DNA from: Marinicella sp.
GTDB taxonomy: Bacteria; Pseudomonadota; Gammaproteobacteria; Xanthomonadales; Marinicellaceae
Direction of reading: 5' to 3'
Assembly (NCBI GenBank): GCA_965230295.1
Contig: OZ246001.1
Location: 1,824,001-1,888,000, forward strand
Length of the DNA: 64,000 bases
The notes below the pieces were generated by a model. That model had not been told where the DNA came from, searched no databases, and was given only the letters and a program-made list of their open reading frames with translations. Every line of letters starts with the position of its first letter. The stretch's first letter is position 1. This document shows positions 6,752-28,606 of this stretch, one piece after another. The translations under genes were made by a program, and so were the position numbers.

Positions 6752-6771
6752 TTCCTCAAGTTGAAGGAAAT

Positions 6772-6803
6772 AAAAAAGGCCTTCGTAATGAAGGCCTTTT
6801 TTT
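6772..6803. terminator. bidirectional intrinsic terminator
   Basis: AAAAAAGGCCTTC-GTAAT-GAAGGCCTTTTTTT between convergent genes. Confidence 0.9.
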
Positions 6804-6821
6804 TGGCATTAAAAACCAGGC

Positions 6822-8283
<1,462 letters not shown>

Positions 8284-8287
<4 letters not shown>

Positions 8288-9153
8288 TTGGGGCTTTTCT
8301 CTCTGAAATATTTAAAGAACTCAGAGTTTGGATCCAGCACCATCACATTGCCAGAGTTTTGTGCAAAGCTGTTGGCATAGGCCTCAAGACTGCGGACAAA
8401 AGCGAAAAATTCAGGGTTCTTTTGGTGACTGTCTGCGAATAATTTGGTGGCCTCAGCGTCACCTTCACCGCGAATCACAGCGGCTTTTTGTTCGGCATCA
8501 GCCAACATGATTTGGATTCTTTTATCGGTGTTCGCGCGGATGTTGATGGACTCCTTGCGACCGGTTGAGCGGTGTTCCGCCGCTTCAACCAAACGTTCAG
8601 AACGCATGCGGTTATAGACCGATTCATTGACTGATTGATCCAAGTTGATTTGTTTGATTCTGACGTCAACAATTTCGATGCCATAGTCTTCAGCACGTGA
8701 CTTGGTTTGTGAACGCAAGTTTTCCATCAACTCAATCCGTTGTGTCGAAATGGCTTGATCCAGTGTGCGCACAGAAAACTCTTCTTGCAGGGCGTTTTTG
8801 ACCACGCCAGATAAGTTGGCATTGGCTTTGGCAATTAAGCCAGCATTTGAAGTGAAGAAAACTTTGACGTCTTTGATGCGCCACTTAACAAAGTAGTCCA
8901 CCATCAAGTATTCATTGTCGGTATTGAATACACGCTCTGGGGCGTTATCCAGAGTTTGGATGCGGCTGTCAAATTTAACGATGTTGTTAACAATCGGAAA
9001 TTTAACATGTAGTCCGGGCTCGTAACCGGCTTGTACCACTTCACCAAAGCGCAATTTAACGGCGGTTTCTTTTTCGTCAATGGTGAACAGAAAGAAACTG
9101 GCCAAAACAGCCAACACCAGTAATCCAATAAGCAATGCGATGAGTTTATTCAT
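8284..9153 (-). CDS. hflC: FtsH protease modulator HflC
   Basis: N-terminal TM helix, SPFH domain, RMRSER motif and C-terminal NPEFFAFVRSLEAY. Confidence 0.95.
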
Positions 9154-9155
9154 GA

Positions 9156-10322
9156 TTATTTCCCCCTCCCACGACGAGTGGTTCTGGTAGTTTGATTGCT
9201 GTTTGACTGCAATTGATTCATGTTGGGTGTGACCACTGTGGTGCCCAAATCCAAGGGTGTGTTGTCAGTTATTTTGGGTTGGTTCTTCATCAACTGATCC
9301 AAAGGCAAATACATCATGCTGTTACCCGAGTCTTGGTCCATGATCACTTTCGAAGTGTCCCCCAGAACACTCTCCATGGTTTCTAAAAACAAACGTTGTC
9401 TGGTCACTTCAGGTGCCAATTCATATTGTTCTCGCAACAAGTTAAAACGATCGGCTTTACCGGCCGCTTCAGCAATGATGGCTTCTTTATAGGCTTCGGC
9501 TTCCTGAATGATTTTTAACACCTTACCTTCGGCTTCTGGGATGCGGCCATTGGCATATTCGTTGGCTTGGTTGATGAAGGTTTTTTGATCTTCACGGGCT
9601 TTGACCACATCATCGAAGGCTTCCTTCACATTGATGGGTGGATGCACTTCAGTGATGTTGACTTGTGTCAGTTGAATGCCCGTTTTGTAGTCGTTCAACA
9701 TGGTTTGAATTTCTTCACGAGCCTGTTGGTTAACAGCGGTTCTGTTTTCATTGATGATAAAGTCCAGTGTACGGGTACCTGCCACTTGGCGCATCACACT
9801 TTCAGCCACTTGCCTGACTGTGTTTTGTGGGCTGGAAACACTGAACAAGTAATCATTGACCCGCTCTTCATCAATGCGGTATTGAATGGAATAGTCGATT
9901 TCAATCAAGTTCTTATCTTCGGTCAACATTTGACCTGAATTGTCTTCTTGTCGAATGGTCTCAACATTGACCCGGTAAACTTCTGCTAATGGTCTGGGCA
10001 AGGTGAAGCGCAAACCAGGCTGCATGGTGTGTGAATATTCACCGAAGACCAAAACCACGCCACGTTCAGCTTGCTCGATTTGGTAGGCTGCACTGTAGAT
10101 ACCAAGACCCAGTAAGCCAAAGAGTAGGATCAATACCGGCCCTTGGGCATTTTTGTTATTACCGCCACCAGAAGACTGGCCCAAGCCCAATGCCCGTTTG
10201 ATTGAGTTGAATAAATCACTGAGGATTTGATCGAACTCTGGTGGTTTGTTGTTACCACCAGGGCGGTTGTTGTTTGGCTTGTTTCCGCCGGAATTTTGGT
10301 TGCCAGGTTCATTCCAAGGCAT
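9156..10322 (-). CDS. hflK: FtsH protease modulator HflK
   Basis: MPWNEPG start, VKEAFDDV, APEVTRQRLFLETME and MMYLPLD. Confidence 0.96.
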   Translation of the reverse strand: MPWNEPGNQNSGGNKPNNNRPGGNNKPPEFDQILSDLFNSIKRALGLGQSSGGGNNKNAQGPVLILLFGLLGLGIYSAAYQIEQAERGVVLVFGEYSHTMQPGLRFTLPRPLAEVYRVNVETIRQEDNSGQMLTEDKNLIEIDYSIQYRIDEERVNDYLFSVSSPQNTVRQVAESVMRQVAGTRTLDFIINENRTAVNQQAREEIQTMLNDYKTGIQLTQVNITEVHPPINVKEAFDDVVKAREDQKTFINQANEYANGRIPEAEGKVLKIIQEAEAYKEAIIAEAAGKADRFNLLREQYELAPEVTRQRLFLETMESVLGDTSKVIMDQDSGNSMMYLPLDQLMKNQPKITDNTPLDLGTTVVTPNMNQLQSNSNQTTRTTRRGRGK

Positions 10323-10339
10323 ACATGTTCTCCTGTTAG

Positions 10340-11680
10340 TTACCAGTCTTGTGGGTTTTCATTAATGGCGACTTCATTGGCAGACAACAAGTCACACACA
10401 AAGGCAGCACTGGGGTCATTGCTTTTGGCCAGCTGTCGCCATTTTTCTATGGGTAATTCTACCCTAATTTGCCAGTCACCTGAATCACTGAACTGTTCAT
10501 CCCGAATGGCTTCCAGTTCATAAAATTGCGCCCGCAATTTAGCCAGGTGCATTGGCAACACGAATTCGAGTGATAAATGGGTACGATGAAGCCGTTCTTC
10601 AATGGCTTTCAACAATAAATCTATACCTTTGTTCTTGTGTGCAGAAATCCACACTTTATCCGGGCTGTCTGATTGGCTTTTCTGCAATTGTTCAGGGTGA
10701 CCTGATTGATCAATTTTATTGAAAATTTCAACCACTGGAACCGACTCGATATGCAACTCATCCAGTACTTTATAAACTTCAGCCATGTGGTCGCGGTGTT
10801 CCGGGTTACTGTCATCTATCACATGCAATAACAAGTCCGCATCAACCGCTTCTTGCAAAGTGGCGCGAAATGCTGCCACCAACTCATGCGGCAGGTCGCG
10901 CACAAACCCCACCGTGTCACTGATCACGGCTTTACAGCCAGGGATCACTGTCAGTTGTCTGACTGTGGGATCCAGGGTGGCAAACAACTGATCTTCTGCA
11001 TAAACACCGGCTTCTGTCAGCAGATTGAATAAGGTGGATTTTCCGGCGTTGGTGTAACCCACCAAAGCCAGCATTTTGGTGCCAGATTTCTTGCGTTGCT
11101 TGCGCCCCTGTTCACGCTGACGCATGACTTTGTCCAGTTTGGCATTCAGAGACTTCACTCGGGCATTTAACAAGCGTCGATCAGTTTCTAATTGGGTTTC
11201 ACCGGGCCCACGCATGCCGATACCACCTTTCTGTCGCTCCAAATGCGTCCAACCGCGTACCAATCGGGTCGACATGTGTTTTAATTGCGCCAGTTCTACT
11301 TGTAACTGGCCTTCATATGAGCGGGCCCGTTGAGCAAAGATGTCTAAGATCAGGGTTCTGCGATCCAATACCCGGGCTTTGACAAAGGCTTCCAGGTTCC
11401 GCTCTTGCACCGGGCTCAAGGACGCGTCCACAATCACCACATCGGCTTCGTGCACCTTGACGGCATGTTTGAGCTCTTCGGCTTTACCTGAGCCAATGTA
11501 AAACTTTGGATCGATGGATTGTTTGGAGCTGGTGATGACGTCAAAAATATCGGCACCTGCTGTGGTCACCAATTCCTTGAATTCTTCGATGCGGTCTGGT
11601 TGCTCACCACGACGGTCTCTTTGCATCGGGGTGGGGCATAACAAGATGGCGCGATCACCGCGTTCGGACCTCTCAAACAT
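10340..11680 (-). CDS. hflX: ribosome rescue GTPase HflX
   Basis: Start MFERSE (ATG at 11680). Motifs RGPGETQLETDRR, GYTNAGKS, LFATLDPT, DTVGF and NKID. Confidence 0.97.
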   Translation of the reverse strand: MFERSERGDRAILLCPTPMQRDRRGEQPDRIEEFKELVTTAGADIFDVITSSKQSIDPKFYIGSGKAEELKHAVKVHEADVVIVDASLSPVQERNLEAFVKARVLDRRTLILDIFAQRARSYEGQLQVELAQLKHMSTRLVRGWTHLERQKGGIGMRGPGETQLETDRRLLNARVKSLNAKLDKVMRQREQGRKQRKKSGTKMLALVGYTNAGKSTLFNLLTEAGVYAEDQLFATLDPTVRQLTVIPGCKAVISDTVGFVRDLPHELVAAFRATLQEAVDADLLLHVIDDSNPEHRDHMAEVYKVLDELHIESVPVVEIFNKIDQSGHPEQLQKSQSDSPDKVWISAHKNKGIDLLLKAIEERLHRTHLSLEFVLPMHLAKLRAQFYELEAIRDEQFSDSGDWQIRVELPIEKWRQLAKSNDPSAAFVCDLLSANEVAINENPQDW

Positions 11681-11685
11681 CAGAT

Positions 11686-11990
11686 GTACCTTTCTTCCCT
11701 TCTTTTGCCGTTCCGGCAAAAACCGGCTGCGAAAGGTTTGTTTGATGAGTCAAGCTCTGACTCGCAATGCTCGCCAACCGCTTGACATAGGACAGAAATA
11801 TGATTGCCTTCATTTGACCTTCGGTCAAAAACCGGCTTCCTCGGGTGGCGTTGATGAGCATTGCCCTGAACTGCTCCGCAGTCCAGCCGCTTAGCATGTT
11901 TAAGTACCTCGCTTCCCTTCTTTCATCGTTCCGGCGAAAACCGGCTGCGCTTGTTTTCTTTAATGAGCCTGGCTCTGAACGGCTGTTCAG
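11686..11990. repeat. three degenerate tandem units with an exact 109-bp period, each built from short hairpins
   Basis: AACCGGCT begins at 11721, 11830 and 11939. Each copy is preceded by CTTC-stem-TTC-stem and followed by T(G/A)ATGAG-N7-CTGA. Confidence 0.8.
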
Positions 11991-12081
11991 TTCAACAGTC
12001 CGATGATTCGAACTCCTGAATGTATGCTTCTTCTGTTCCTGAGAAATGTCATCTAATGGTAAATCACGCAAACCACCGCCC

Positions 12082-12111
12082 GTCATTGCCCGGCTTGACC
12101 GGGCAATCCAT
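12082..12111. repeat. REP-like palindrome GTCATTGCCCGGCTTGACCGGGCAATCCAT
   Basis: Stem ATTGCCCGG/CCGGGCAAT with GTCA...CCA flanks. It resembles the widespread GTCATT...ATCCA proteobacterial REP class. Confidence 0.65.
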
Positions 12112-12268
12112 AGGTCAGGAAAAGGAAGTATTGCGATTTGTCTGAAGCACAAGAAGCGATACTGGAGTTCCATAGGCCGTGAAGCGGGTTCGAACGCAGT
12201 TCGAAATTCAGCCAACTGCTGATCAATAACTGTTGTGGCTTTTGGAGTCATCATTTCTTCCGGACCAA

Positions 12269-17650: not shown

Positions 17651-20266
17651 TCAGTTAAGTTGATCGGTATTGATGACTTCAAAGCTTTTCAATTCGATGC
17701 CAAATTTCCGCCTGTCTTTGCTGTCAGAAACAGCAGAAGGTGAAGTGGTGGTGTTGGTTTGAAATTTAAGTTCGATGAGGTTTTGTTGTTCGTTGGTAAT
17801 AGCGGGGCAATCAGCGTGATATTTTCTGCCACCCCTGTCTGACTCTTCAAAAACATCCAAATTCAGCGGAATGCCATTCATGTAAACCTGAAGTTGATCC
17901 GGGTCTACATGGGTATAGAATCTCAGGATATTGATGCGAACGGATTTGTTGTGACAGAAGTTTTTGGGCGCTTTGAACAGCAAAGAGGATTGTCTTTTTC
18001 CTGTCCATCTACCCAAATGCTTGGCCGCCCAAAAACCTTCAGGGTGAAATTTTTCAATGTCTTTTGAAAAATCCACTCCGAAGATTCCATCAGAACCGTC
18101 TAGACTTGCAATGTTGAAATTGGAGATTTTTAGTTTTGAAAGGTAGAGCTCATGGTCGTTGTTCATCTGCTGACCTTCAATTTTTATGCTTAACTCTTTG
18201 GAGTTTGATAGACCTGCTATGAATGGAACCAGATAGGTTAATTTTTTGTTGACCACTTTAATGAGAGCCCATTCTTTGTTATCGATACTTATGGTCACAT
18301 CGGTCAAATCTGTCATTGATAGCAATTCAATTTCAAGTTGAAAGCCGCCATTGTTATTCAGGGGCTGATCAAGCGGTAAGTTGAGAAGGAATTGTTGGTG
18401 GATCGATTGTATGCTGGAGTGGAGTAGTTGGTGGTTATCTGCCACCAGGAACTGATTCTGATAATCAGCATCAGCCTTCAAGTCTGCTCCAAACCTGACT
18501 GTTTTGTTCAATTGGTATTTGTCTACACTTTGAGGCATTTGTTCTTGGGCAGATAATATGCCAAGCCGGTTCCAGGACGTTTCGTCGTATACATGGCCTG
18601 TTATGTTGAACACCCTGAAGTCTTCCAGGTATTTAGAATCAAAGCCAGTAAAATTGTAGTAATAAAACGGCCTCTCTCTGGGTTGATTGTCTCTGAGTTC
18701 GTTGATTTCGATTCCAGGGGCATCCAAATTTTGATCACTGAACGATGCCAAGGTGGGCATGATGTCTAACAAAGAAACAGGCTTGGCAGAGAGTTCAAAA
18801 GGGTTGTTATCACCAAATCCCTTTACCAGTAACAGTGGCTTTCCAGAAGCCATTTCTTTACCCAATTCGTTGATGTAGGTGAATTCACCTTGAGCGGAGT
18901 TGTACTTCAGTCTCGTATATTCACCACCACCATGGTCTGCAGCTATGATGATGGCAGATTGATCATAAATGCCTAATTTTTCAAACTCTTTTAAATAGCT
19001 GATCATCAATTTTAAACTGGCATAAGCATAGTCTTGATAAGCTTGAAAAGAGCCGCTTTTAGGTACGGGGCGCAAGTTCCTGTCCAAGGTAAAAGGGCTG
19101 TGTGGCATCAACAGATGATAGAATCTGAAGGTGGGGTTGATGGAGTCTGTGTCTGCGTGTGTTTTGAGATTTTCTAAAAAGTTAATGCCCCGATGTTTAT
19201 TGACTTTTGGTAATTTTTTTGGCGCCTCTTTGTCTGCAGGGATCAATTGTTGATTTTCAATGTATTCAATCACGGCATTTTTGACTAAAAAATCACCTTC
19301 ATTAAAAATCACCGGCTTTAACGAATGGGGGGACGATCTGAACAGCGATAAATCCAGTGCCTGCAAATAGTTTTCAACTTTTTCAAGGGGTTCAATGTTG
19401 TCGATGAAATTACTCATGATCTCACCGTTAACAGGAATCAGGTTTTTTTTGTAAGGATACAGGCCAACATCCCAGTCATCGTCAATTAAATCGGTCAATA
19501 ATGAGTCATCATAAACATCTTTCAAAAAGGTTTGAATGGGTTGTTCTTTTTGATAAACCTGGCCGGTCAGCAGCATGGGAACGGTCGGATAGGTTTTTGA
19601 AAAAACAGCAGTTGTATCTGGATAAAATGTAAATCCTGGCAAGAGGTTGGTCAATTCCGGCTCTTGATCAATGATGTGCCAAAACAGGTCTGATTGAAAG
19701 CCATCCAAAATAAACAGCATGACATTTTTATCTTTTGAAAATTTAAACTTGTTATTTTCAGTGATTGAATAGGGATTTAAAGTTGCTTCATGATCAATAG
19801 ATGTCAAGGCAAGCAAAAATACCAGAGTGGATGCAGTTGTTGAAAACATCAATAAAACTGAAGTGTGTTTTACGATCTTTTTTCGAAAGAAAATCAAGGC
19901 AGTCAGTGCAGCAAGCCACACACTCAAGTCAACCCATTGACTGTTGGTGTGATTTGAGAAATCAATACCATCGCCTTGCAATATGCCATAATCCCAAACC
20001 AAGATATTCTGCTGGATAAAAATCAGCACATTAAGTAACACAAACAAAGGTAACAGGAACTGGCGCAAGATCCCGGGGATGACCATTGCCAGCAAACCAG
20101 AACAGAAAAAAATGGTTGCTAAGATATACAGGTATATGAAGACTGATTCAGTCAAGGGAACACTGAAATTAAATTGATTACTGAGCCAAATAACAACGGG
20201 AAAGAAAATCAGTATTTGAATCAAAGCAACTGATACGGCTATGAACAAAAGCAGCCTTTCTTTCAT
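17651..20266 (-). CDS. membrane-anchored sulfatase/LtaS-fold transferase (paralog)
   Basis: N-terminal TM helices. Motifs FILDGFQ, KTYPTVPMLLTG, HLLMPHSP and ADHG. The C-terminal SKDRRKFG resembles SSDVRKLS in the neighbouring gene. Confidence 0.75.
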   Translation of the reverse strand: MKERLLLFIAVSVALIQILIFFPVVIWLSNQFNFSVPLTESVFIYLYILATIFFCSGLLAMVIPGILRQFLLPLFVLLNVLIFIQQNILVWDYGILQGDGIDFSNHTNSQWVDLSVWLAALTALIFFRKKIVKHTSVLLMFSTTASTLVFLLALTSIDHEATLNPYSITENNKFKFSKDKNVMLFILDGFQSDLFWHIIDQEPELTNLLPGFTFYPDTTAVFSKTYPTVPMLLTGQVYQKEQPIQTFLKDVYDDSLLTDLIDDDWDVGLYPYKKNLIPVNGEIMSNFIDNIEPLEKVENYLQALDLSLFRSSPHSLKPVIFNEGDFLVKNAVIEYIENQQLIPADKEAPKKLPKVNKHRGINFLENLKTHADTDSINPTFRFYHLLMPHSPFTLDRNLRPVPKSGSFQAYQDYAYASLKLMISYLKEFEKLGIYDQSAIIIAADHGGGEYTRLKYNSAQGEFTYINELGKEMASGKPLLLVKGFGDNNPFELSAKPVSLLDIMPTLASFSDQNLDAPGIEINELRDNQPRERPFYYYNFTGFDSKYLEDFRVFNITGHVYDETSWNRLGILSAQEQMPQSVDKYQLNKTVRFGADLKADADYQNQFLVADNHQLLHSSIQSIHQQFLLNLPLDQPLNNNGGFQLEIELLSMTDLTDVTISIDNKEWALIKVVNKKLTYLVPFIAGLSNSKELSIKIEGQQMNNDHELYLSKLKISNFNIASLDGSDGIFGVDFSKDIEKFHPEGFWAAKHLGRWTGKRQSSLLFKAPKNFCHNKSVRINILRFYTHVDPDQLQVYMNGIPLNLDVFEESDRGGRKYHADCPAITNEQQNLIELKFQTNTTTSPSAVSDSKDRRKFGIELKSFEVINTDQLN

Positions 20267-20432: not shown

Positions 20433-21530
20433 TTAAATTTGTCGAACACAAAACTCAGGAGTGAGGTGGTCGACCCCAGCACGATTTATATGACTGTTGG
20501 CTTCTTCAGACTTCGTTTTCAAGACCGCAAACATCATGGTGGGTTTGATGGTTCCAGAATAAATGTGTTTTTCATCGGTTTCATGTATGGCATCTATGAA
20601 TGATAAATCATCAGGGTCATTCACATCAAAGTTGGGTCCAAATGGCCGGTCGATAAAAATCATTACAATGTTGGCAAACGGAATGAACAGGTCGAACTCA
20701 AATCGCTCAATCATCAATGGCAGCACATCTTGGGCGCGTATGCCTTCAAAGCCCTCACTGGAACAGTCGTGGTTGATGAACTTCTTTTCCAAGCGTTGCA
20801 TCGCATGGTTGTACATATATTTTTTGGGCATTTTGCGCCATATGTCTTCGATCAACGTGACGGCTTCGGGCCATCTTTGGTGGCCATTCCGGCCGATCAC
20901 ATCTGAGGTGATGAATTTTCCATGCTCAGTCAGTGCCAATTTGATGTTGTCATATAAGTGTTCGAGTTCGACCACATGGTGTAGGCTTTGATTGGCAATG
21001 ATGAGGTCATAGGATTTATGGGCTTGCCATTTGTTGAAGTCGGCTTGAAGAAAGGTCATTTTATCTGCCACCCCTTGTTCTGAGGCACGCTGTAAACCAC
21101 GATCAAACATAGCTTGGTTGATGTCCATGCATTCTATGATGAAGTTTTGGTATCCCTGTTTGGTTAAGTTTTTCGCCAACAACACTTCGGCGTCGCAATT
21201 ACCGGCGCCAATACTTAATATGGTGGTGTTACCCTGATTGTTTTTGATCGCTTGTATGGCATATTTTAAGAAGAATTCATCTGGGTTATTAAAGCCATGT
21301 TGAGTCAATTTGGGCACCAAATATTTGTTGGACCAATAATGAAAGATTTCTGGCAGGTCATTGACCTCTATTTCATCATTGAATCGGGTGATTTCATCAT
21401 GCAGGTGGTCTTTATAGGTTTTTGGGGCAGGCTTAAAAAACAGCTTGATGACCCAATGATAAATAGGCCTGAGCAATGCCTTGATGGGTTTTGGCATCAA
21501 GCGCTTTACTGTCTCAATGAAACCAGCCAT
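20433..21530 (-). CDS. class I SAM-dependent methyltransferase
   Basis: ILSIGAGNC motif I, MDINQ, ADFN and YDLIIANQSLHH. Confidence 0.85.
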   Translation of the reverse strand: MAGFIETVKRLMPKPIKALLRPIYHWVIKLFFKPAPKTYKDHLHDEITRFNDEIEVNDLPEIFHYWSNKYLVPKLTQHGFNNPDEFFLKYAIQAIKNNQGNTTILSIGAGNCDAEVLLAKNLTKQGYQNFIIECMDINQAMFDRGLQRASEQGVADKMTFLQADFNKWQAHKSYDLIIANQSLHHVVELEHLYDNIKLALTEHGKFITSDVIGRNGHQRWPEAVTLIEDIWRKMPKKYMYNHAMQRLEKKFINHDCSSEGFEGIRAQDVLPLMIERFEFDLFIPFANIVMIFIDRPFGPNFDVNDPDDLSFIDAIHETDEKHIYSGTIKPTMMFAVLKTKSEEANSHINRAGVDHLTPEFCVRQI

Positions 21531-22465
21531 CAGTCTTGGGATGGCGGTTGAAACTCATCAACCAGATAAATGGGTCTTTGCTTGCTTTCATTAAACATGC
21601 GGCCCAAGTATTCACCAATGATTCCCAGCGCTGTCAGTTGGATGCCGCCTAAAAACAAGATCACCACCATCAGGGATGGGTAGCCAGGGACATCACTGCC
21701 TAATATCAGGGTTTTGGCAATGATCACGGCCCCATAGATAAAGGCAAATATAGCCACGGTCATACCAATCCAAGTGGCAAAACGCAGTGGCATGTAACTG
21801 AAAGAAGTGATGCCATCCAAAGCAAAACGCCAGAGTTTGCCATAATTCCATTTGGTTTCACCAGCCGCTCTGGGCTCTCGTTCAAAATACAGCTGTTTTT
21901 GTTTGTAACCAACCCAGGCGAACAAACCTTTCATGAACCGGTTTCTTTCACGCAGTTTATTAACCGCTGTGTAGGCTTTCTTTGACATCAACCGGTAATC
22001 ACCGGTGTCTTTGGGGATGTCAATCTTGCTCATTGAGTTGATGATACGGTAGAACATGTTGGCGGTGGCTTTTTTGGTGGCTGATTCGCCGTGTCTGACT
22101 TTGCGGGTGGCATACACCACATCAAAACCGCTGTGCCAAGCTGCGATCATCTCAGGAATCAGTTCTGGTGGGTCCTGTAAATCAACATCAATCACCACTG
22201 CGGCATCGGCTGATGCATGATCCAGGCCTGCTGTCAGCGCATATTCTTTGCCAAAATTTCGACTCAAAGACAAGTAACCAAAGTTGCTGGCAGCCTCATG
22301 CATGTTGCGCATAACCTGTAAACTGTCATCGTCAGAGCCGTCATCAACAAAAATAACCCGCCACTGTACGTCACAAGATTGCATCACGGCAGTGATCCGC
22401 TCTTGAAACAAAGGGAGCACGTCTTGTTCATTATAAACAGGCACAATGATGTCTACAGATGGCAT
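21530..22465 (-). CDS. GT2 polyprenol-phosphate glycosyltransferase (GtrB/YfdH-like)
   Basis: Motifs VPVYNE, VDDGS, SRNFGKE, DVDLQDPPE and DTGDYRLM, two C-terminal TM helices, and GEYLGR. Confidence 0.92.
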   Translation of the reverse strand: MPSVDIIVPVYNEQDVLPLFQERITAVMQSCDVQWRVIFVDDGSDDDSLQVMRNMHEAASNFGYLSLSRNFGKEYALTAGLDHASADAAVVIDVDLQDPPELIPEMIAAWHSGFDVVYATRKVRHGESATKKATANMFYRIINSMSKIDIPKDTGDYRLMSKKAYTAVNKLRERNRFMKGLFAWVGYKQKQLYFEREPRAAGETKWNYGKLWRFALDGITSFSYMPLRFATWIGMTVAIFAFIYGAVIIAKTLILGSDVPGYPSLMVVILFLGGIQLTALGIIGEYLGRMFNESKQRPIYLVDEFQPPSQD

Positions 22466-22525: not shown

Positions 22526-22888
22526 TTATGGACGGATGAATTTGATTTGTATCTTCAATAGATAAAAGGTAACCCAACCCAGCAGCACACCGGTTACATT
22601 CATGACCCAATCCAGCCACTCCAAATACCGGTATGGTGTTAGGCTTTGTAGGAATTCGAGCACTGTGCCCAGTAGCACAAAACCAATGATGATGTGCCAG
22701 GTTTTGTTAGGATAAACATGAAAAAACCAATAACTAAGTACCCAATAGGTGCACAAGTGCAGCAACTTATCACCGCCTTGCACTTGGATGTTGGTTTCAG
22801 GCAAGCGCACCAAAGAAAGCATCACTACAGCAGCCACCATCAACCAGCCAAGGCTTCGGGTCAAGCGCAGTTTGTTTGCTGCATTCAT
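22526..22888 (-). CDS. VanZ-family membrane protein
   Basis: DKLLH...Y, EFLQ...R and DWVMNVTG. The ATG at 22888 overlaps the upstream stop (ATGA). Confidence 0.85.
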   Translation of the reverse strand: MNAANKLRLTRSLGWLMVAAVVMLSLVRLPETNIQVQGGDKLLHLCTYWVLSYWFFHVYPNKTWHIIIGFVLLGTVLEFLQSLTPYRYLEWLDWVMNVTGVLLGWVTFYLLKIQIKFIRP

Positions 22889-23973
22889 GAGTCTAACCAA
22901 CGGGTATAAGCTGCGTGCAAGTCTTGCCAATGGCATCGAATGTCTGCCGTTTGAAGTTGATCCAGTTTTTGTAGTTTTTGATAAATGGCTTGGGCCTCTT
23001 TTTTGGGGTTGCCTGGGGTTGAATTATACCGGTTGCTATCAGGATAAAGCTCGGGATAAACCAAGCGGTCGGGTACCAAAGGTAAGCAGCCACAAGCAGC
23101 AGCCTCCAGTACAGCCAGGCCCTGAAAGTCGTGTAAGGCGGTTGATAAAACCACATCGGCAGACTGTAAAATTTTAAGGTACTGGTCCCTCGATTCTATA
23201 AAACCCAGACTTAAACATTGGTCGCTGTGTTGTTCCTTGATGGTTTGCATGGTGGCGGGTTGTTCTCTGAATTGTTGTCCTATTATGTGAAATCGGATCG
23301 GCTTGGTGGTCGGCGATTTGTGCTGACAAAAATACAATAATTTGAGCAAGGTTTCAGGACCCTTGTCATGTTCCCAGCGGTGGTTCCATACAACTTCGGT
23401 GTATGGTTTTATCGATGTCTTGCTTGATCGATTGGGCTGGCAGTCATCGGCCAAGGGAACTGCCAAGACGGTTGATTTGGCAGCCAATTGATTTTCCAGG
23501 TTGTTAGGAATGCCATCTGGCATTTGTTTGATGAAACCTGATAAACCGGCAAAGAAGCTGTCGCGATTGAATTCAGAATTAAATGTAATTTGATCGGCAA
23601 CCATCGCCGAATACAAACTGCGCATTTGTATCTCTTTCAGGCCTTGTTGTTTGTGGTTGACCGGGTAAGCAAACTGGTTCTCATGGAAATAAAGCAGATT
23701 TGGAATTTTGGCCAAGTGAGGATACATGCCGCGTAAGGTGGCCAAATCTTTCATCGATGTGGCAATCAACAAATCATAATCGGCTTGTAAAAGATCATTG
23801 TATTCGGCTTTGAAATTCAGGGCATTGCCGCCCATACGCCAAGCAAAAAAACGGTCCTTTAAAGTCAAGACTACCCAGTCATGCTGGCCAAATTGAGACA
23901 CCAATTGCTCACGCCAAAACCGGTGAGAACGGGCGTCATAAGCAGACAACAGCAGAATGCGTTTGGATTTCAT
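22885..23973 (-). CDS. DUF3524 GT4 glycosyltransferase (GTDC1/QTMAN homolog)
   Basis: Motifs SH..W, R..AWRM, YFHENQFAYP, FNSEFN, WNHRWEHDKGP and STALHDFQGLAVLEA...P..P.RLVYPE. Confidence 0.85.
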   Translation of the reverse strand: MKSKRILLLSAYDARSHRFWREQLVSQFGQHDWVVLTLKDRFFAWRMGGNALNFKAEYNDLLQADYDLLIATSMKDLATLRGMYPHLAKIPNLLYFHENQFAYPVNHKQQGLKEIQMRSLYSAMVADQITFNSEFNRDSFFAGLSGFIKQMPDGIPNNLENQLAAKSTVLAVPLADDCQPNRSSKTSIKPYTEVVWNHRWEHDKGPETLLKLLYFCQHKSPTTKPIRFHIIGQQFREQPATMQTIKEQHSDQCLSLGFIESRDQYLKILQSADVVLSTALHDFQGLAVLEAAACGCLPLVPDRLVYPELYPDSNRYNSTPGNPKKEAQAIYQKLQKLDQLQTADIRCHWQDLHAAYTRWLDS

Positions 23974-24098
23974 TTTCTGCGGTTGTCGCCACACATTAGA
24001 TGAATTGTTTTATCTTTCAACACGCCACCCTGGTTGGTAAAGCGAAGCTTTATCAGTAGGGTATGCGAAATCAGTTCAAGCATGCCCTTGGGACTTCA

Positions 24099-26003
24099 TC
24101 ATTTGTTTTTGATGTCTTCTTTCAGTCGATCGACAAAACCCATCACCGCTTCTTGGGCCGTTTCAGTGGCATTCAAACTGGTGTACTGCAGTTCTGAGCC
24201 ATAACCGGTTCCAATTGAATCGCCTGATGACAAGTCATAGCTGTCGACGTCTAACTGGGCGCTGACCATGATCGAAGAGCGGCCATAATATTCCAGTGTT
24301 TGTTGTCCAACATGGTTTACATTGGCAATGATCATGGCTTCTCCGCCGTAAGCATCTAACTTGCTTTTGATCGCTGCCAAATCAACACCCTGAGACATGG
24401 CCTGAGCCATGCCAGGAACGAATTGCTCATTCAATACTTTGATGTTGTCACGTTTGAGTTCAGCTTCCAGAATTTTTTCAATCGGATTGGCCACCGCTGG
24501 GTCACCAAATACCAACACCGCAACGCCTTTGTCTTTCTTCATCACCTTGGGTTTTCGGATCACCGGTGTGGATTTTTTTTCAATAAAAGCATCGACACTT
24601 TTGTTGGCATGATCAACAGCCGCCAGAGTGGTGGTCTGGGTTTGGGCTTGTTGCTGATCAATTTTGGCTTGGTTGATCACTGAATCAGCAAGGTTCGGAT
24701 TGGTCGTTGTTTGGACCAAATCATGACCAGGGTTAACACCCGCATCATTGCTTGTTGTCACCTGGCCTGGATCAACTTGCTGGTTGTTATCACTGTCCTC
24801 TTGAGCCAGCTGCGCATTCATGTCATCGCTGATTTGAGCCAGTTCTTCTTTGGATTTCAAATTGACATCATCCAATTGCATGTTGTCAGCACTTTTACCC
24901 AGTAAAGTCATTGGTTGAGTTTGGTTGGATTGGTCATCAACTTTGTTGCCAAATGGTGAAGGAATAAAGCCTTCATATATCCCGACAGCACCAACACCAA
25001 CAGCCAAAACCAATGACAATACAGTCCAAGCCAACTTGTTGGACTTCCTTTTGGTTTTTGGCACCATGGTTTCCAATGTTGCGGCAGCTTGCATGGTCAC
25101 TTGCTGTGACACATTGGCTTTTTTCTTTTCGGGTTTGACCGATACCGCTTGCTTTTTGATGTCCTCCAAACTCAAATCTATGGTTGAAGGTCCCAATTGC
25201 CTGATCACTTCTTGGCATGATTGACAGCGTTCCTCTGGATTCTTGGCAATCATTTTTTCTAAGATGTAACTGGTTTTCTTGTCGACTTTTTTGTTGATCT
25301 CACGGATGTCTGGGATTTCTGCCTGAACCACTTCCAGCATCAGGCCCAATGGGCTGTCATTTTCGAATGGCACTTTGCCGGCCAGCATTTCATAAAACAC
25401 GATGCCCAAGGCAAAAATGTCCGAACGTGCATCGACTTCTTTACCGGTACACACTTCAGGAGAAAGGTAGCCAGGTGTGCCAACGAATTCACCAGTATTG
25501 GTTAATTTGTCACCGTACTCTCTGGTTTGAGCGATGCCAAAATCAACCACTTTAACGGTGCCATCATCACAGATCATCAGGTTAGCGGGTTTGATGTCTC
25601 GATGTACCAGATCACGCTCATGAGCCACCGCTAATCCGGCACAGGCCTGACGCAGGATTTCTTTGGCATGCGGAACAGTCAACACACTGTTACCACGCAA
25701 CAGGTCGTCCAAAGAAACGCCTTCAATAAACTCCATGGCAAAATAAGGTTGTTTCTCTTCCATACCAATGAAATACACTTGTATCACATTGGGATGATTG
25801 ATCGCTGCCATACTTTTGGCTTCACGGGTAAACCGCTCGATCAAACCTTCATCCCCCAACAAGTGTTCGCCCAATGCTTTGATGGCTACATGCCTGTTCA
25901 ATGAGGGTTCCCAGGCCTTATATACCACACCCATGCCGCCCCTGCCTAATTCAGATACGACTTCATAATGACCAAATTTCTTATTCATAATATTTTCCGA
26001 CAT
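24099..26003 (-). CDS. Hanks-type Ser/Thr protein kinase with TM helix and periplasmic domain
   Basis: Motifs LGRGGMGVVY, VAIK, HRDIKPAN, DFG, GTPGYLSPE and SDIFALG. TM segment LAWTVLSLVLAVGVGAVGIY. Confidence 0.93.
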   Translation of the reverse strand: MSENIMNKKFGHYEVVSELGRGGMGVVYKAWEPSLNRHVAIKALGEHLLGDEGLIERFTREAKSMAAINHPNVIQVYFIGMEEKQPYFAMEFIEGVSLDDLLRGNSVLTVPHAKEILRQACAGLAVAHERDLVHRDIKPANLMICDDGTVKVVDFGIAQTREYGDKLTNTGEFVGTPGYLSPEVCTGKEVDARSDIFALGIVFYEMLAGKVPFENDSPLGLMLEVVQAEIPDIREINKKVDKKTSYILEKMIAKNPEERCQSCQEVIRQLGPSTIDLSLEDIKKQAVSVKPEKKKANVSQQVTMQAAATLETMVPKTKRKSNKLAWTVLSLVLAVGVGAVGIYEGFIPSPFGNKVDDQSNQTQPMTLLGKSADNMQLDDVNLKSKEELAQISDDMNAQLAQEDSDNNQQVDPGQVTTSNDAGVNPGHDLVQTTTNPNLADSVINQAKIDQQQAQTQTTTLAAVDHANKSVDAFIEKKSTPVIRKPKVMKKDKGVAVLVFGDPAVANPIEKILEAELKRDNIKVLNEQFVPGMAQAMSQGVDLAAIKSKLDAYGGEAMIIANVNHVGQQTLEYYGRSSIMVSAQLDVDSYDLSSGDSIGTGYGSELQYTSLNATETAQEAVMGFVDRLKEDIKNK

Positions 26004-26099
26004 AGTCTTATCCCGCCCCAATAGTCTCGGTTTTTATTTTTCGAGCTTATATTGTAAACATGCGGTTTGAATATGAGCTTAACCCAAAAACCCGAGTTT

Positions 26100-26115
26100 T
26101 GTGAAGCAGATCACT
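26100..26115. promoter_or_regulatory. CRP-family binding site
   Basis: TGTGA-AGCAGA-TCACT (9/10 match to TGTGA-N6-TCACA) between the divergent kinase and aspS genes. Confidence 0.5.
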
Positions 26116-26223
26116 TTTTAATCGCCATATTTGGCCATTTATAGGCACAAATAGGTGTTATCTGTACACCTTGTTAAGGTAAAATTGCCTGCTTTTTTAA
26201 AGAAACTTGAAGGTTTAAATAGC

Positions 26224-27999
26224 ATGCGGAATGAATTTTGTGGTCAGGTCACGGAAAAATACCTGGATCAACAAGTTGAAGTCTGTGGTTGGGTCGGCAA
26301 TCGACGCGACCATGGGGGCGTCATATTCATTGATTTAAGAGACCACACGGGCTTGGTTCAGGTGGTGGTTGAACCTGATAATGAAGCGGCATTTAAGATT
26401 GCTGACAGTGCCCGTTATGAGTACTGTTTGCGCGTCAAAGGTACCGTAAGAAATCGGCCAGAAGGTCAAAACAATGATAAATTAGCCACTGGTCAAATTG
26501 AAGTGGTTGTGGATGAATACCACGTCTTGAATCCGTCTAAACCTTTGCCCTTTATGTTGGACGAGCACCCGGGTGAAAACATCCGCCTGCAATACCGCTA
26601 CTTGGACCTCAGACGCGACAACATGCAACACAACATGCGCTTGCGTTCGAAGTTAACCCACGCCTTGCGCAATCAGCTGCATCAGCAAGACTTCTTAGAC
26701 ATTGAAACACCGGTTTTGACCAAAGCAACGCCTGAAGGAGCGCGTGACTTTTTGGTGCCATCCAGGATGAATGCCGGCCAGTTTTATGCCATGCCACAAT
26801 CGCCACAACTGTTCAAACAATTGTTGATGATGTCCGGGATGGATCGTTATTATCAAATTGCGCGGTGTTTCCGTGATGAAGACTTGCGTGCCGATCGCCA
26901 GCCTGAGTTCACCCAATTGGATATTGAGATGGCTTTTGTCGAGCAAGAAGATGTGTTGCAAATGGCAGAAAACCTGATCCGCAACACCTTCAAGGAAGTC
27001 ATGGATGTTGAGTTAGCAAACCCATTCCCACGCATGACCTATGCTGAAGCCATGCGCCGCTATGGCTCTGACAAGCCAGATTTGCGCATCGATTTGGAAT
27101 TAGTGGATGTGGCTGACGCGGTGAAAGATTCTGAATTTAAAGTGTTCTCAGCACCAGCCAATGACCCCAATGGCCGTGTGGCGGTGTTGAAAGTGCCTCA
27201 AGGTGGGGCCAACTTCACCCGCAAACAAATTGATGAATACGAGCCATATGCCCGCCGTTTTGGTGCCCGTGGTTTGGCTTGGATCAAGGTCAATGACAAG
27301 TCTGCAGGTAAAGAAGGCTTACAATCACCCATTGTTAAATTCCTCAGTGACGATGCTTTGGCTGGAATTTTGTCAGCAACCGCAGCTGACAATGGCGATC
27401 TGTTGTTCTTCGGTGCTGGTAAATACAATGAAGTGAGCCAGTTTATGGGTGCTTTGCGTTTGAAAGTGGGTCAAGACATTGGACAAGTCAGTGATACATG
27501 GGAGCCCTTGTGGGTGGTTGATTTTCCGATGTTTGAGTACAACGATGATGAAAACCGGTGGGACGCATTGCATCACCCATTCACCGCACCGACAGGCTCT
27601 GTTGAAGCATTGAAAAGCAACCCGGGCGAAGCTTTGTCAAAAGGCTATGACATGGTGATGAATGGCGTGGAATTGGGTGGTGGCTCGATCCGTATTCATG
27701 ACCAGCAAATGCAATCATCGGTGCTTGAGTTATTGGGCATCAGTGAACAGCAAGCCGAAGAAAAATTTGGTTTCCTGTTAGAAGCACTGCAATTTGGTTG
27801 TCCCCCACATGGCGGCATTGCTTTCGGTGTTGATCGCATGGCCGCATTGTTGTGTGGTGAAGAATCGATCCGTGAGGTGATTGCCTTCCCGAAAACCTCC
27901 AGTGGTCATTGTCCATTAACCAGCGCCCCATCAGTCATTGACCCCGAACAACTGGCTGAGGTCCATGTTCAGGTCATTGAACCTGAAACGGATGACTGA
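26224..27999 (+). CDS. aspS: aspartate-tRNA ligase
   Basis: [14 protein letters not shown] (His as in non-discriminating Asp/Asn enzymes), [33 protein letters not shown] and PPHGG. Start ATG at 26224. Confidence 0.98.
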
Positions 28000-28606
28000 A
28001 TCACAACAAGAAGCTGTTGTATTGGTCCATGGCTTGTACATGAAGCCATGGACCTGGATTTCCTACCGCCGATTCTTGACCCGACAAGGGTATCGTGTCT
28101 ATACTTTTGGCTATAAAACAACCCGCCAACCCTTTGCATTGACCTTGATGAAATTGGTGGCCTTTGTCAATTCCCGCCACGAACAAACCGTGCATCTGGT
28201 GGTGCATTCAATGGGTGGTATTTTAAGTATGCGTGCCTTACCCAAAATCACCAAACCAGGCAAAATGGTGATGCTGGGTTCACCAGTCAAAGGTTCCAAA
28301 GTGGCCAAAAAACTCAAGCACATGGGCTGGCACAAAGGCTTGTTGAACCACGCCACAGAGCCTTTAACTGCCGGCCTGGTCGATGCGGTCAAACAAAGAG
28401 ACACCTTGATGATTGCTGGCACTTCGCCTTATGGTTTGGGTCGCTTCATAGAGCCGAAGTTGGGTCCCAGTGATGGAACGGTGGCGGTGCATGAAACCCA
28501 GGCAGAGTGGCTGGATGAACACCGTGAAATTCACAGCAGCCACTTCGGTTTGTTGCGCAACAAACAAGCCCAAGCCATGACTTTGGAGTTTTTACAAGAA
28601 ACATAA
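27992..28606 (+). CDS. alpha/beta hydrolase (lipase/esterase family)
   Basis: Motifs VLVHGL, HSMGG nucleophile elbow, LGSP, SDGTV and SHFGLL. Confidence 0.85.

What the first reader, a model, noticed from the sequence alone, without database searches (positions are those of the whole stretch)
22885..27999. Bacterial homolog of tRNA-Asp queuosine mannosyltransferase (GTDC1/QTMAN) lies two genes from aspS
Seen: the DUF3524 motifs YFHENQ..YP and W.HRWEHDK.P. Known: vertebrate GTDC1/QTMAN mannosylates Q34 of tRNA-Asp. To my knowledge the bacterial homologs have no assigned substrate. Seen: aspS is 2.2 kb away, but the gene is translationally coupled to vanZ and precedes the glycan cassette. Inference: either bacterial Q-tRNA glycosylation or an envelope glycan role.
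Basis: partly seen in the sequence, partly recalled or inferred. Interest (0 to 1): 0.6.

Follow-up and report, generated by a model that had tools for sequence, protein, structure and literature searches.

The report
Bacterial queuosine-mannosyltransferase homolog; aspS link incidental
This Marinicella gene is a genuine, full-length bacterial relative of the animal enzyme that puts mannose on the tRNA base queuosine, but its closeness to the aspartyl-tRNA synthetase gene is inherited gene order in one bacterial family and says nothing about what the enzyme does.

Summary
Window 22885-23973 (-) encodes a 362-aa cytoplasmic glycosyltransferase with a complete QTMAN_N domain (E 1.2e-55), a GT1 C-domain and both quoted motifs. 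It lies 2.25 kb from a divergent aspS, and its stop overlaps the vanZ start (ATGA).

The aspS adjacency is kept in 13 of 13 Marinicellaceae regions, as part of a SurA-LptD-...-AspS | kinase-QTMANh block. It occurs in only 2 of 80 related loci, both Marinicella-like, and not in the one positive genome of another family. The vanZ/GT2 cassette is equally lineage-bound. So neither context clue predicts function.

Elsewhere the gene sits beside trpS, prfC, Sel1-repeat genes or, in one Marinobacter sub-lineage, inside a glucosylglycerate operon. In M. antarcticus it is fused to that operon's kinase.

The genome has tgt, queA, queG, queC, manC and GUN tRNAs, so glycosyl-queuosine remains possible. 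It also has GluQRS, which already modifies Q34 of tRNA-Asp.

Best reading (about 0.45): a tRNA-Q34 hexosyltransferase, resting on homology alone. Databases already name the family, and this scan has flagged bacterial members at least six times on other DNA. Interest is modest.

The parts
22885..23973 (-). QTMAN/GTDC1-family glycosyltransferase (362 aa; QTMAN_N plus GT1 C-domain; no predicted TM segment)
   Evidence: Pfam; translation and motifs; identical 362-aa database protein P0002; AF2 model with pLDDT 92.8 and GT-B fold; no hydrophobic segment.
22526..22888 (-). VanZ-like small membrane protein; its likely start ATG 22888 overlaps the glycosyltransferase stop (ATGA)
   Evidence: Pfam VanZ E 2.7e-9; sequence read; TM segments.
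21530..22465 (-). GT2 polyprenyl-phosphate sugar transferase type (PgfS/ArnC-like), with two C-terminal TM segments
   Evidence: Pfam Glycos_transf_2 E 6.6e-27; NCBIfam PgfS E 7.7e-86 and ArnC-type E 6.4e-51, both below their equivalog cut-offs; TM segments.
20433..21530 (-). SAM-dependent methyltransferase (365 aa)
   Evidence: Pfam Methyltransf_31/25/12/11.
17651..20266 (-). 871-aa protein with 4-5 N-terminal TM segments and a large soluble domain; no family match
   Evidence: 0 Pfam and 0 NCBIfam families; hydropathy.
24099..26021 (-). Ser/Thr protein kinase (640 aa) with one TM segment (residues 328-355) and a C-terminal region without a family; directly upstream of the glycosyltransferase in all Marinicellaceae regions examined
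   Evidence: Pfam Pkinase E 1.4e-55; TM; synteny in 13 of 13 regions.
26224..27999 (+). aspS, aspartate-tRNA ligase, divergent from the kinase gene (the ORF opens at GTG 26155; the likely start is ATG 26224)
   Evidence: NCBIfam NF001750 883.5 bits and TIGR00459 807 bits; N-terminus.
27938..28606 (+). alpha/beta hydrolase downstream of aspS, part of the conserved Marinicellaceae block
   Evidence: Pfam Abhydrolase_6; synteny.

Best explanation
The gene encodes a soluble, cytoplasmic, retaining-type GT-B glycosyltransferase. It belongs to a single orthologous family shared by roughly 5% of sampled gammaproteobacterial genomes and by animals (QTMAN/GTDC1). Most likely it does in Marinicella what QTMAN does in vertebrates. 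It would take a nucleotide-hexose (by analogy GDP-mannose, which this genome can make) and transfer the sugar to a hydroxyl of the cyclopentenediol ring of queuosine at position 34 of an already Q-modified GUN-anticodon tRNA. Shown here: family membership, fold, an intact Q pathway, a GDP-mannose supply, and the presence of the substrate tRNAs. Inferred only: the acceptor, the donor and which tRNA. The nearness of aspS is vertically inherited gene order and carries no functional information.
For: The QTMAN_N match is full-length, at 188 bits against a cut-off of 25, and is followed by a GT1 domain. Against a nemertean QTMAN-like protein (P0123, RWD+QTMAN_N+GT1) the N-domain is 35% identical over 169 aa (E 2e-27) and the C-domain 44% over 125 aa (E 2e-33). 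The YFHENQ..YP and W.HRWEHDKGP motifs are kept. Of 61 positions conserved at 97% or more across 115 homologs, 33 lie in the acceptor-side N-domain, which fits an invariant acceptor. The AF2 model (pLDDT 92.8, pTM 0.90) is a GT-B fold, and its nearest solved structures are retaining GT-B enzymes. There is no TM segment. The own genome has tgt, queA, queG, queC and manC and tRNA-Asp (two genes), Asn, Tyr and His with GUN anticodons. tgt and queA are present in 22 of 22 family-positive genomes. manC is over its cut-off in 20 of 22, against 291 of 400 in the class sample. The gene has no conserved operon partner across 78 indexed loci, which by my general knowledge is the usual pattern for tRNA-modification genes. 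A FastTree tree (no support values read) broadly follows taxonomy, with one Marinobacter clade and no obvious paralog split.
Against: No experiment on any bacterial member was found. The co-occurrence with tgt and queA does not discriminate, because both are near-universal in the class. The manC enrichment is weak (about 0.04 by my own binomial arithmetic, and relatives are not independent). GluQRS, which already hypermodifies Q34 of tRNA-Asp in bacteria (recalled), is over its cut-off in 20 of 22 positive genomes, this one included. So there is no sign of functional replacement, and there would be competition for the same diol. Linkage to Q genes is rare. tgt lies within 10 kb in 8 of 80 loci, all among Spongiibacteraceae/Halieaceae/Pseudohongiellaceae-type records. 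In the 3 of the 22 evenly drawn or related positive genomes where both genes share a contig, they lie over 400 kb apart; in the other 19 they are on different contigs. The median pI of homologs is 6.5, which is not basic. In one Marinobacter sub-lineage the ortholog is the fifth gene of a glucosylglycerate-type operon, and in M. antarcticus it is fused to that operon's P-loop kinase. In Marinicellaceae it is coupled to envelope-type genes.
Confidence: 0.45

Rival explanations
1. The enzyme glycosylates a soluble, non-tRNA acceptor in the cytoplasm. Candidates are a small metabolite (a glycerate/phosphoglycerate-type compatible-solute precursor, a cyclitol, a pterin or a free 7-deazaguanine derivative) or a protein. 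On this view the animal enzymes acquired the Q-tRNA acceptor later.
For: In 5 of 80 loci (L036, L045, L046, L052, L069; Marinobacter) the ortholog closes a tight co-directional operon. The order is P-loop PRK/uridine-kinase-like kinase, MPGP-family HAD-IIB phosphatase (TIGR01486, 222 bits against a cut-off of 164.75), GpgS-like synthase (NF040724, E 1.5e-114, below its cut-off), GH13 sucrose-phosphorylase-like enzyme, then the QTMAN homolog, with gaps of -4 to 46 nt. In M. antarcticus the kinase is fused end-to-start to the homolog (P0122). The nearest solved folds include enzymes with small soluble acceptors: GlgM, MshA, BshA, OtsA, VldE, sucrose-phosphate synthase and a tetrahydrobiopterin glucosyltransferase. 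The named records among the homologs and loci are almost all marine or halophilic taxa. The homologs are not basic.
Against: The glucosylglycerate context is confined to one subclade of the Marinobacter clade. Its closest orthologs sit in other contexts. This single-contig Marinicella genome has no MPGP-family phosphatase, no GpgS and no homolog of the kinase or the GH13 enzyme. So the family's common function cannot depend on them. No phosphatase partner recurs across the 78 indexed loci. The fusion could be a deletion remnant. Fold neighbours share only 10-16% identity.
Confidence: 0.25
2. In Marinicellaceae the enzyme is the cytoplasmic glycosyltransferase of an envelope-glycan or lipid-modification operon: kinase, GT4-like transferase, VanZ, GT2, methyltransferase and a large membrane protein.
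For: The stop and start overlap as ATGA with vanZ. The genes run co-directionally with a PgfS/ArnC-like GT2 that has C-terminal TM segments and with an 871-aa polytopic membrane protein. The QTMANh-VanZ and QTMANh-GT2 adjacencies are each seen in 11 of 13 Marinicellaceae regions. One source labels homologs 'glycosyltransferase involved in cell wall biosynthesis', which is an automatic label.
Against: Outside Marinicella-like records GT2 is adjacent in 0 of 78 loci and VanZ in 0 of 78 (the 2 positives are L028 and L029). No envelope gene recurs next to the family. Within the family the cassette erodes while the transferase stays: VanZ is undetected in L115 and L121, and GT2 in L111 and L116. 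From general knowledge (recalled, not tested here), a GT2 that makes a polyprenyl-phosphate sugar, together with membrane partners, forms a complete system without a soluble GT4-type enzyme. The strongly conserved acceptor-side domain shared with animals is not what variable glycan transferases show.
Confidence: 0.15
3. The aspS proximity reflects a functional tie between this transferase and tRNA-Asp metabolism, such as co-regulation through the divergent kinase/aspS promoter region.
For: aspS and the kinase-transferase pair are adjacent in 13 of 13 Marinicellaceae regions. Vertebrate QTMAN acts on tRNA-Asp (abstract of the 2026 bioRxiv preprint; passages). Single anecdotes elsewhere: a tRNA-Asp gene lies just downstream in L085 and 4.6 kb upstream in L083 (60 of the 80 loci were scanned).
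Against: aspS is within 10 kb in only 2 of 80 loci, both Marinicella-like, and not in G030. The whole SurA-LptD-MT-MscS-hydrolase-AspS block is conserved with it, so this is shared ancestry. In the sister genus about 1.7 kb lies between the kinase and aspS matches (L119). Another lineage places the gene next to trpS (17 loci), and tRNA-Trp carries no Q (recalled). No tRNA gene lies in the window.
Confidence: 0.05

Closest known systems
Vertebrate QTMAN (GTDC1), tRNA-queuosine alpha-mannosyltransferase
   Same: The domain architecture is the same: QTMAN_N followed by a GT1-type C-domain. The signature motifs are shared. Identity to an animal family member is 35-44% in both domains. The fold is GT-B. 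The host has Q-tRNA and GDP-mannose biosynthesis genes.
   Different: The bacterial protein is shorter. The animal homolog compared here has about 135 extra residues between the N-domain and the W.HRWEHDKGP motif, plus an N-terminal RWD domain. The acceptor, the donor and the tRNA specificity are untested in any bacterium. That vertebrate QTMAN uses GDP-mannose on Q34 of tRNA-Asp comes from Zhao et al. 2023 as cited in the papers read. I did not see the original paper.
GluQRS (YadB), glutamyl-Q tRNA(Asp) synthetase
   Same: It is the known bacterial enzyme that decorates the cyclopentenediol of Q34 in tRNA-Asp (recalled). It is present in this genome (TIGR03838, 342.8 bits against a cut-off of 276.7) and in 20 of 22 family-positive genomes.
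   Different: It belongs to an unrelated fold and chemistry: a class I synthetase paralog that esterifies glutamate. Its co-occurrence means the homolog does not replace it.
Retaining GT-B glycosyltransferases with soluble acceptors (GlgM, MshA, BshA, OtsA, VldE, sucrose-phosphate synthase, pterin glucosyltransferase)
   Same: These are the best structural neighbours (Foldseek E 3e-11 to 3e-8, TM about 0.55-0.66).
   Different: Identity is only 10-16%. None has the QTMAN_N sequence signature. A profile search of PDB sequences finds only C-domain similarity.
QTGAL (B3GNTL1), the galactosyl-Q transferase of tRNA-Tyr
   Same: It is the other known Q-glycosylating enzyme.
   Different: It is a different protein family. 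No similarity was seen or tested here.

Membership tests
QTMAN/GTDC1 (PF12038 + GT1) | Complete QTMAN_N (former DUF3524) N-terminal domain | tested here: met
   Positions 1-168 of 168, 188.3 bits against a cut-off of 25, E 1.2e-55; the same from the genome search.
QTMAN/GTDC1 (PF12038 + GT1) | GT1/GT4-type nucleotide-sugar-binding C-terminal domain following it | tested here: met
   Glycos_transf_1 E 3.4e-11 and Glyco_trans_1_4 E 3.3e-8 at residues 199-341.
QTMAN/GTDC1 (PF12038 + GT1) | Signature motifs shared with animal members (YFHENQ..YP; W.HRWEHDKGP) | tested here: met
   Present, invariant in 68 homologs and aligned to the same motifs in the nemertean protein P0123. Vertebrate QTMAN itself was not available to align.
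QTMAN/GTDC1 (PF12038 + GT1) | GT-B two-Rossmann fold | tested here: met
   AF2 model with pLDDT 92.8 and pTM 0.90; the top 50 Foldseek PDB matches listed are GT-B-type glycosyltransferases by their titles.
QTMAN/GTDC1 (PF12038 + GT1) | Host makes queuosine-modified tRNA (substrate available) | tested here: met
   tgt, queA, queG and queC are present; GUN tRNAs are present.
QTMAN/GTDC1 (PF12038 + GT1) | Acceptor is Q34 of tRNA (tRNA-Asp in vertebrates) | not testable with these tools
   This needs nucleoside mass spectrometry or an enzyme assay. Context gives no support.
QTMAN/GTDC1 (PF12038 + GT1) | Donor is GDP-mannose | tested here: inconclusive
   manC is present in the own genome and in 20 of 22 positive genomes against 291 of 400 in the background. 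This is compatible but weak.
Envelope-glycan GT4 transferases (cell-wall/LPS type) | Recurrent clustering with glycan-assembly genes across the family | tested here: not met
   GT2 is adjacent in 2 of 80 loci and VanZ in 1 of 80, all Marinicella-like. Other neighbours are heterogeneous.
Glycosyl-(phospho)glycerate compatible-solute systems (GpgS/MpgS with MPGP-type phosphatase) | Partner phosphatase or synthase present in the genome | tested here: not met
   No TIGR01486 or NF040724 match in the own genome. No tblastn match to the Marinobacter kinase, MPGP, GpgS or GH13 proteins.

The most novel reading that the evidence does not exclude
Marinicella, and with it about one in twenty gammaproteobacterial genomes plus members of other phyla, carries a hexosyl-queuosine in tRNA. 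This would be the first glycosylated queuosine in bacteria. It would exist alongside glutamyl-Q, which implies either two alternative decorations competing for the same Q34 diol or different GUN tRNAs carrying different decorations. It would also suggest that the animal enzyme descends from this bacterial family.
Probability: 0.4. Interest if true: 0.7.

Novelty: new member of a known kind. Interest (0 to 1): 0.3.

Why it matters
As far as I recall, and in the papers read here, glycosylated queuosine (manQ, galQ) is described only in animals. Bacteria make the queuosine that animals salvage. If bacterial QTMAN homologs glycosylate Q, a new bacterial tRNA modification exists, and the origin of the animal enzyme becomes traceable. 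The question is directly testable by nucleoside mass spectrometry in a culturable marine bacterium, or by expressing the gene in E. coli, which lacks the family (0 of 14 control genomes).

This window adds little to that question. Databases already label the family by homology. The scan has flagged bacterial members repeatedly. The one new clue offered here, aspS adjacency, proves to be inherited gene order.

Three results are useful. GluQRS co-occurs rather than being replaced. Neither context reading holds. A Marinobacter sub-lineage ties the ortholog to a glucosylglycerate operon and a kinase fusion, which is a concrete rival acceptor hypothesis.

Tried and rejected
Phage relatives. A pattern scan of viral contigs with the family alignment found 21 pattern matches and 0 confirmed relatives. 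tblastn against 50,697 phage records gave 6 weak matches to the C-domain only (26-38% identity over 16-34% of the query). The one inspected (H3) is a transferase next to GlmS and a BshB-like deacetylase, not a QTMAN relative. So I could not reproduce the earlier notes on phage QTMAN-like genes in deazaguanine clusters.

Solved structures. A profile search of PDB sequences found no family member, only 6 hits by C-domain similarity.

Expression. No RNA holder was listed for the stretch, and read laying was not used.

tRNA genes near the family. tRNA-Asp lay within the locus in 2 of 60 scanned loci and tRNA-Asn in 1. These are too few to count.

Charge. The homologs are not basic, which decides nothing.

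A rough enrichment of translation genes among neighbours (aspS, trpS, prfC, mnmE, tsaB, queA-tgt) was considered. I rejected it as evidence. The trpS/tsaB/M18 block and the tgt cases belong to one or two related lineages, and the evenly drawn sample shows no tgt linkage.

A phyletic test in a phylum where tgt is patchy (Actinomycetota, where the Atlas lists a 102-member family cluster) could not be run. No genome handle outside Pseudomonadota or Myxococcota was obtainable after the single genome-contig scan.

One search failed on wrong coordinates and was corrected. One search did not run and was re-sent.
Full report
WHAT IS THERE

The window comes from a single-contig 4.0-Mb genome, G000. Its closest named relatives are Marinicella species, Gammaproteobacteria.

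On the minus strand the following genes run in order:
- A Ser/Thr kinase (24099-26021; one TM segment).
- The gene in question (22885-23973).
- A VanZ-like membrane protein (22526-22888).
- A PgfS/ArnC-like GT2 (21530-22465).
- A methyltransferase (20433-21530).
- An 871-aa polytopic membrane protein with no family match (17651-20266).

aspS lies on the plus strand, divergent from the kinase. The ORF opens at 26155, the likely start is ATG 26224, and it ends at 27999.

The protein matches Pfam QTMAN_N end to end (188 bits, cut-off 25, E 1.2e-55) and is followed by a GT1 domain. It carries YFHENQFAYP and WNHRWEHDKGP. Its TGA stop overlaps an in-frame ATG of vanZ.

THE PROTEIN

A word-indexed search found 4573 homologs at E <= 1e-10 among 7487 candidates. 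Sources name many of them 'tRNA-queuosine alpha-mannosyltransferase domain-containing protein' or 'DUF3524 domain-containing protein'. The protein atlas gives the same automatic names. Both are labels by homology.

In 115 full-length homologs (of 120 listed; 5 outside 340-420 aa were dropped), 61 positions are at least 97% conserved. Of these, 33 lie in the N-domain.

An AlphaFold2 model built on 68 sequences is confident (pLDDT 92.8, pTM 0.90). It is a GT-B fold. Its nearest solved structures are retaining GT-B enzymes: archaeal glycogen synthase, GlgM, VldE, MshA, OtsA, BshA, sucrose-phosphate synthase and a pterin glucosyltransferase. Identity to these is 10-16%. No QTMAN-family structure is in the PDB copy by profile search.

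The search for longer forms returned 4 proteins. One is an animal member from the nemertean Lineus longissimus, with RWD, QTMAN_N and GT1 domains. The Marinicella protein is 35% identical to it over the N-domain and 44% over the C-domain core, and both motifs are kept. Membership in the QTMAN/GTDC1 family is therefore solid. I could not align vertebrate QTMAN itself.

IS THE aspS LINK CONSERVED?

I fetched 20-kb regions around the homolog from 14 of the 24 other positive genomes, chosen for contig length. All 13 Marinicellaceae regions (12 from the same genus, plus the sister genus G024) keep the block SurA-LptD-methyltransferase-MscS-hydrolase-AspS | kinase-homolog. The one positive genome from another family of the order (G030) has none of these neighbours.

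Among 80 loci with 10-kb flanks from other species' genomes (the best 80 of at least 594 confirmed relatives), aspS and the kinase are each present in 2, L028 and L029. These are an uncultured Marinicella and a 55%-identical gammaproteobacterial MAG. The adjacency is therefore gene order inherited within one family.

The glycan cassette fares no better:
- GT2 is adjacent in 2 of 80 loci and VanZ in 1 of 80.
- Inside Marinicellaceae, VanZ was not detected in 2 of 13 regions and GT2 in 2 of 13, while the homolog persists.

WHAT SURROUNDS THE FAMILY ELSEWHERE

I called ORFs in the 80 loci. Two loci (L042, L084) could not be indexed and were dropped. I clustered the neighbours and annotated cluster representatives and 69 further immediate neighbours. 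No partner is general.

The largest recurring block is M18 aminopeptidase (18 loci), then the homolog, then trpS. trpS is confirmed as tryptophan-tRNA ligase. It occurs in 17 loci, immediately downstream and co-directional in 16 of them. These loci are Cellvibrionaceae, Spongiibacteraceae and Halieaceae-type records, and tsaB, uppP and adk lie further upstream.

Other lineages show:
- prfC upstream (L034).
- mnmE alongside (L050).
- Three Sel1-repeat genes (Amphritea).
- MFS and PFOR genes (some Marinobacter).
- Response regulators, peroxiredoxins, an AcrB pump and others.

tgt lies within 10 kb in 8 of 80 loci and queA in 4 of 80. queG, queC and gluQ are in 0 of 80. The tgt cases fall in two related groups. 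Among the 22 positive genomes from the even class sample and close relatives, tgt shares a contig with the homolog in three, and there they lie more than 400 kb apart. In the other 19 the two genes are on different contigs. I regard the scatter of translation-related neighbours as anecdotal.

A RIVAL LEAD FOUND ON THE WAY

In 5 Marinobacter loci the ortholog is the fifth gene of a tight operon:
- A P-loop kinase of the PRK/uridine-kinase type.
- An MPGP-family HAD-IIB phosphatase (TIGR01486, over its cut-off).
- A GpgS-like glucosyl-3-phosphoglycerate synthase (E 1.5e-114, below the equivalog cut-off).
- A GH13 sucrose-phosphorylase-like enzyme.
- The homolog.
- A quinone oxidoreductase.

In M. 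antarcticus the same kind of kinase is fused directly to the homolog (P0122, 714 aa). This suggests a glycosylglycerate-type soluble acceptor.

Three results count against extending it to the family. A tree places these five inside a single Marinobacter clade whose other members sit in unrelated contexts. The Marinicella genome has no MPGP-family phosphatase, no GpgS and no homolog of the kinase or the GH13 enzyme. No phosphatase recurs next to the family. A paper on glucosylglycerol metabolism in Marinobacter, of which I saw only searched passages, does not mention the transferase.

CAN THE ORGANISM SUPPLY THE PRESUMED SUBSTRATES?

The genome has tgt, queA, queG, queC and manC. It has two tRNA-Asp genes and one each of tRNA-Asn, Tyr and His with GUN anticodons. 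None of these tRNA genes is in the window.

The family is over its cut-off in 20 of 401 evenly drawn gammaproteobacterial genomes and matches in 17 of 309 genera. It is in 22 of 23 other genomes of the genus. It is in 0 of 14 model control genomes.

In 22 positive genomes:
- tgt is present in 22.
- queA is present in 22.
- manC is over its cut-off in 20. The class sample has 291 of 400. That tally includes four genomes flagged as unpublished (G298, G076, G308, G154) and excludes the unscored G255.
- GluQRS is over its cut-off in 20, this genome included.

The Q-pathway co-occurrence is expected for this class, so it only fails to refute. The GluQRS result is new and cuts slightly against tRNA-Asp as the target. 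The known bacterial decorator of that same diol is retained, not replaced.

LITERATURE

Searches for QTMAN, GTDC1, DUF3524, QTGAL and mannosyl-queuosine found only work on animals.

I read the abstract and outline of the 2026 preprint on the hierarchy of Q glycosylation. I read searched passages of that preprint, a 2026 ageing preprint and a 2024 review. All attribute the vertebrate activity to Zhao et al. 2023, which I did not see. None mentions bacterial homologs.

The scan's own notes list at least six earlier follow-ups of bacterial members on other genomes, with the same conclusion, and two phage cases. I could not reproduce the phage lead with this query.

VERDICT

This is a real, intact, vertically inherited member of a family that is known and already named. 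Its biochemical function in bacteria is unproven. The best reading is a tRNA-Q34 hexosyltransferase (0.45). The rivals are a soluble non-tRNA acceptor (0.25), an envelope role in Marinicellaceae (0.15) and an aspS-specific tie (0.05). I class it as a new member of a known kind, of modest interest. The underlying question of whether bacteria glycosylate queuosine stays open and is easy to test.

Noticed in passing
L036, L045, L046, L052, L069 (about 5200-11100 in each); protein P0122: In one Marinobacter sub-lineage the QTMAN homolog ends a tight operon: P-loop PRK-like kinase, MPGP-family phosphatase, GpgS-like synthase, GH13 sucrose-phosphorylase-like enzyme. In M. antarcticus the kinase is fused to the homolog (714 aa). 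This is a possible uncharacterised glycosylglycerate-related role.
   Followed up: partly
17 of the 80 loci, e.g. L068:11150-12160, L054 about 11100-12140: trpS (tryptophan-tRNA ligase) lies downstream of the homolog and co-directional, immediately so in 16 of the 17 loci. An M18 aminopeptidase lies upstream. The records are Cellvibrionaceae/Spongiibacteraceae/Halieaceae-type. In L054 queA-tgt follows about 5 kb further on, after a TonB receptor gene and tRNA-Leu.
   Followed up: partly
window 17651-20266 (-): An 871-aa protein with 4-5 N-terminal TM segments and a large soluble domain, with no Pfam or NCBIfam match. A 47%-identical copy follows the GT2 gene in one other Marinicella genome (L114). 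By eye (untested), the stretch after the TM segments recalls membrane-anchored alkaline-phosphatase-superfamily transferases.
   Followed up: no
window 24099-26021 (-): A Ser/Thr kinase with one TM segment and a family-less C-terminal region of about 285 aa. It is kept directly upstream of the homolog in 13 of 13 Marinicellaceae regions, and the matches lie as little as about 15 nt apart in L108 and L109. It is absent next to the family elsewhere.
   Followed up: partly
L108-L121 versus the window: Within Marinicellaceae the homolog is only 47-64% identical to the window's copy. AspS is 76-92%, the GT2 75-90% and the kinase 57-79%. So it evolves faster than its neighbours.
   Followed up: no
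G100:C30:38780-39142; G016:C61:9401-9909: One class-sample genome has a truncated QTMAN_N match with an internal TAA while keeping tgt, queA and gluQ. One Marinicella genome (89% complete, 7% contamination) shows the gene as two overlapping matches, which could be a frameshift or an assembly error.
   Followed up: no
L085:11190-11266; L083:5329-5405: A tRNA-Asp(GUC) gene lies about 250 nt downstream of the homolog in a Cellvibrionaceae MAG and 4.6 kb upstream in Neptuniibacter caesariensis. These are isolated cases among 60 loci scanned.
   Followed up: no
proteins P0123, P0124, P0125: A nemertean family member carries an N-terminal RWD domain. Two unnamed 660-690-aa proteins have a QTMAN_N domain interrupted by an insertion.
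   Followed up: no
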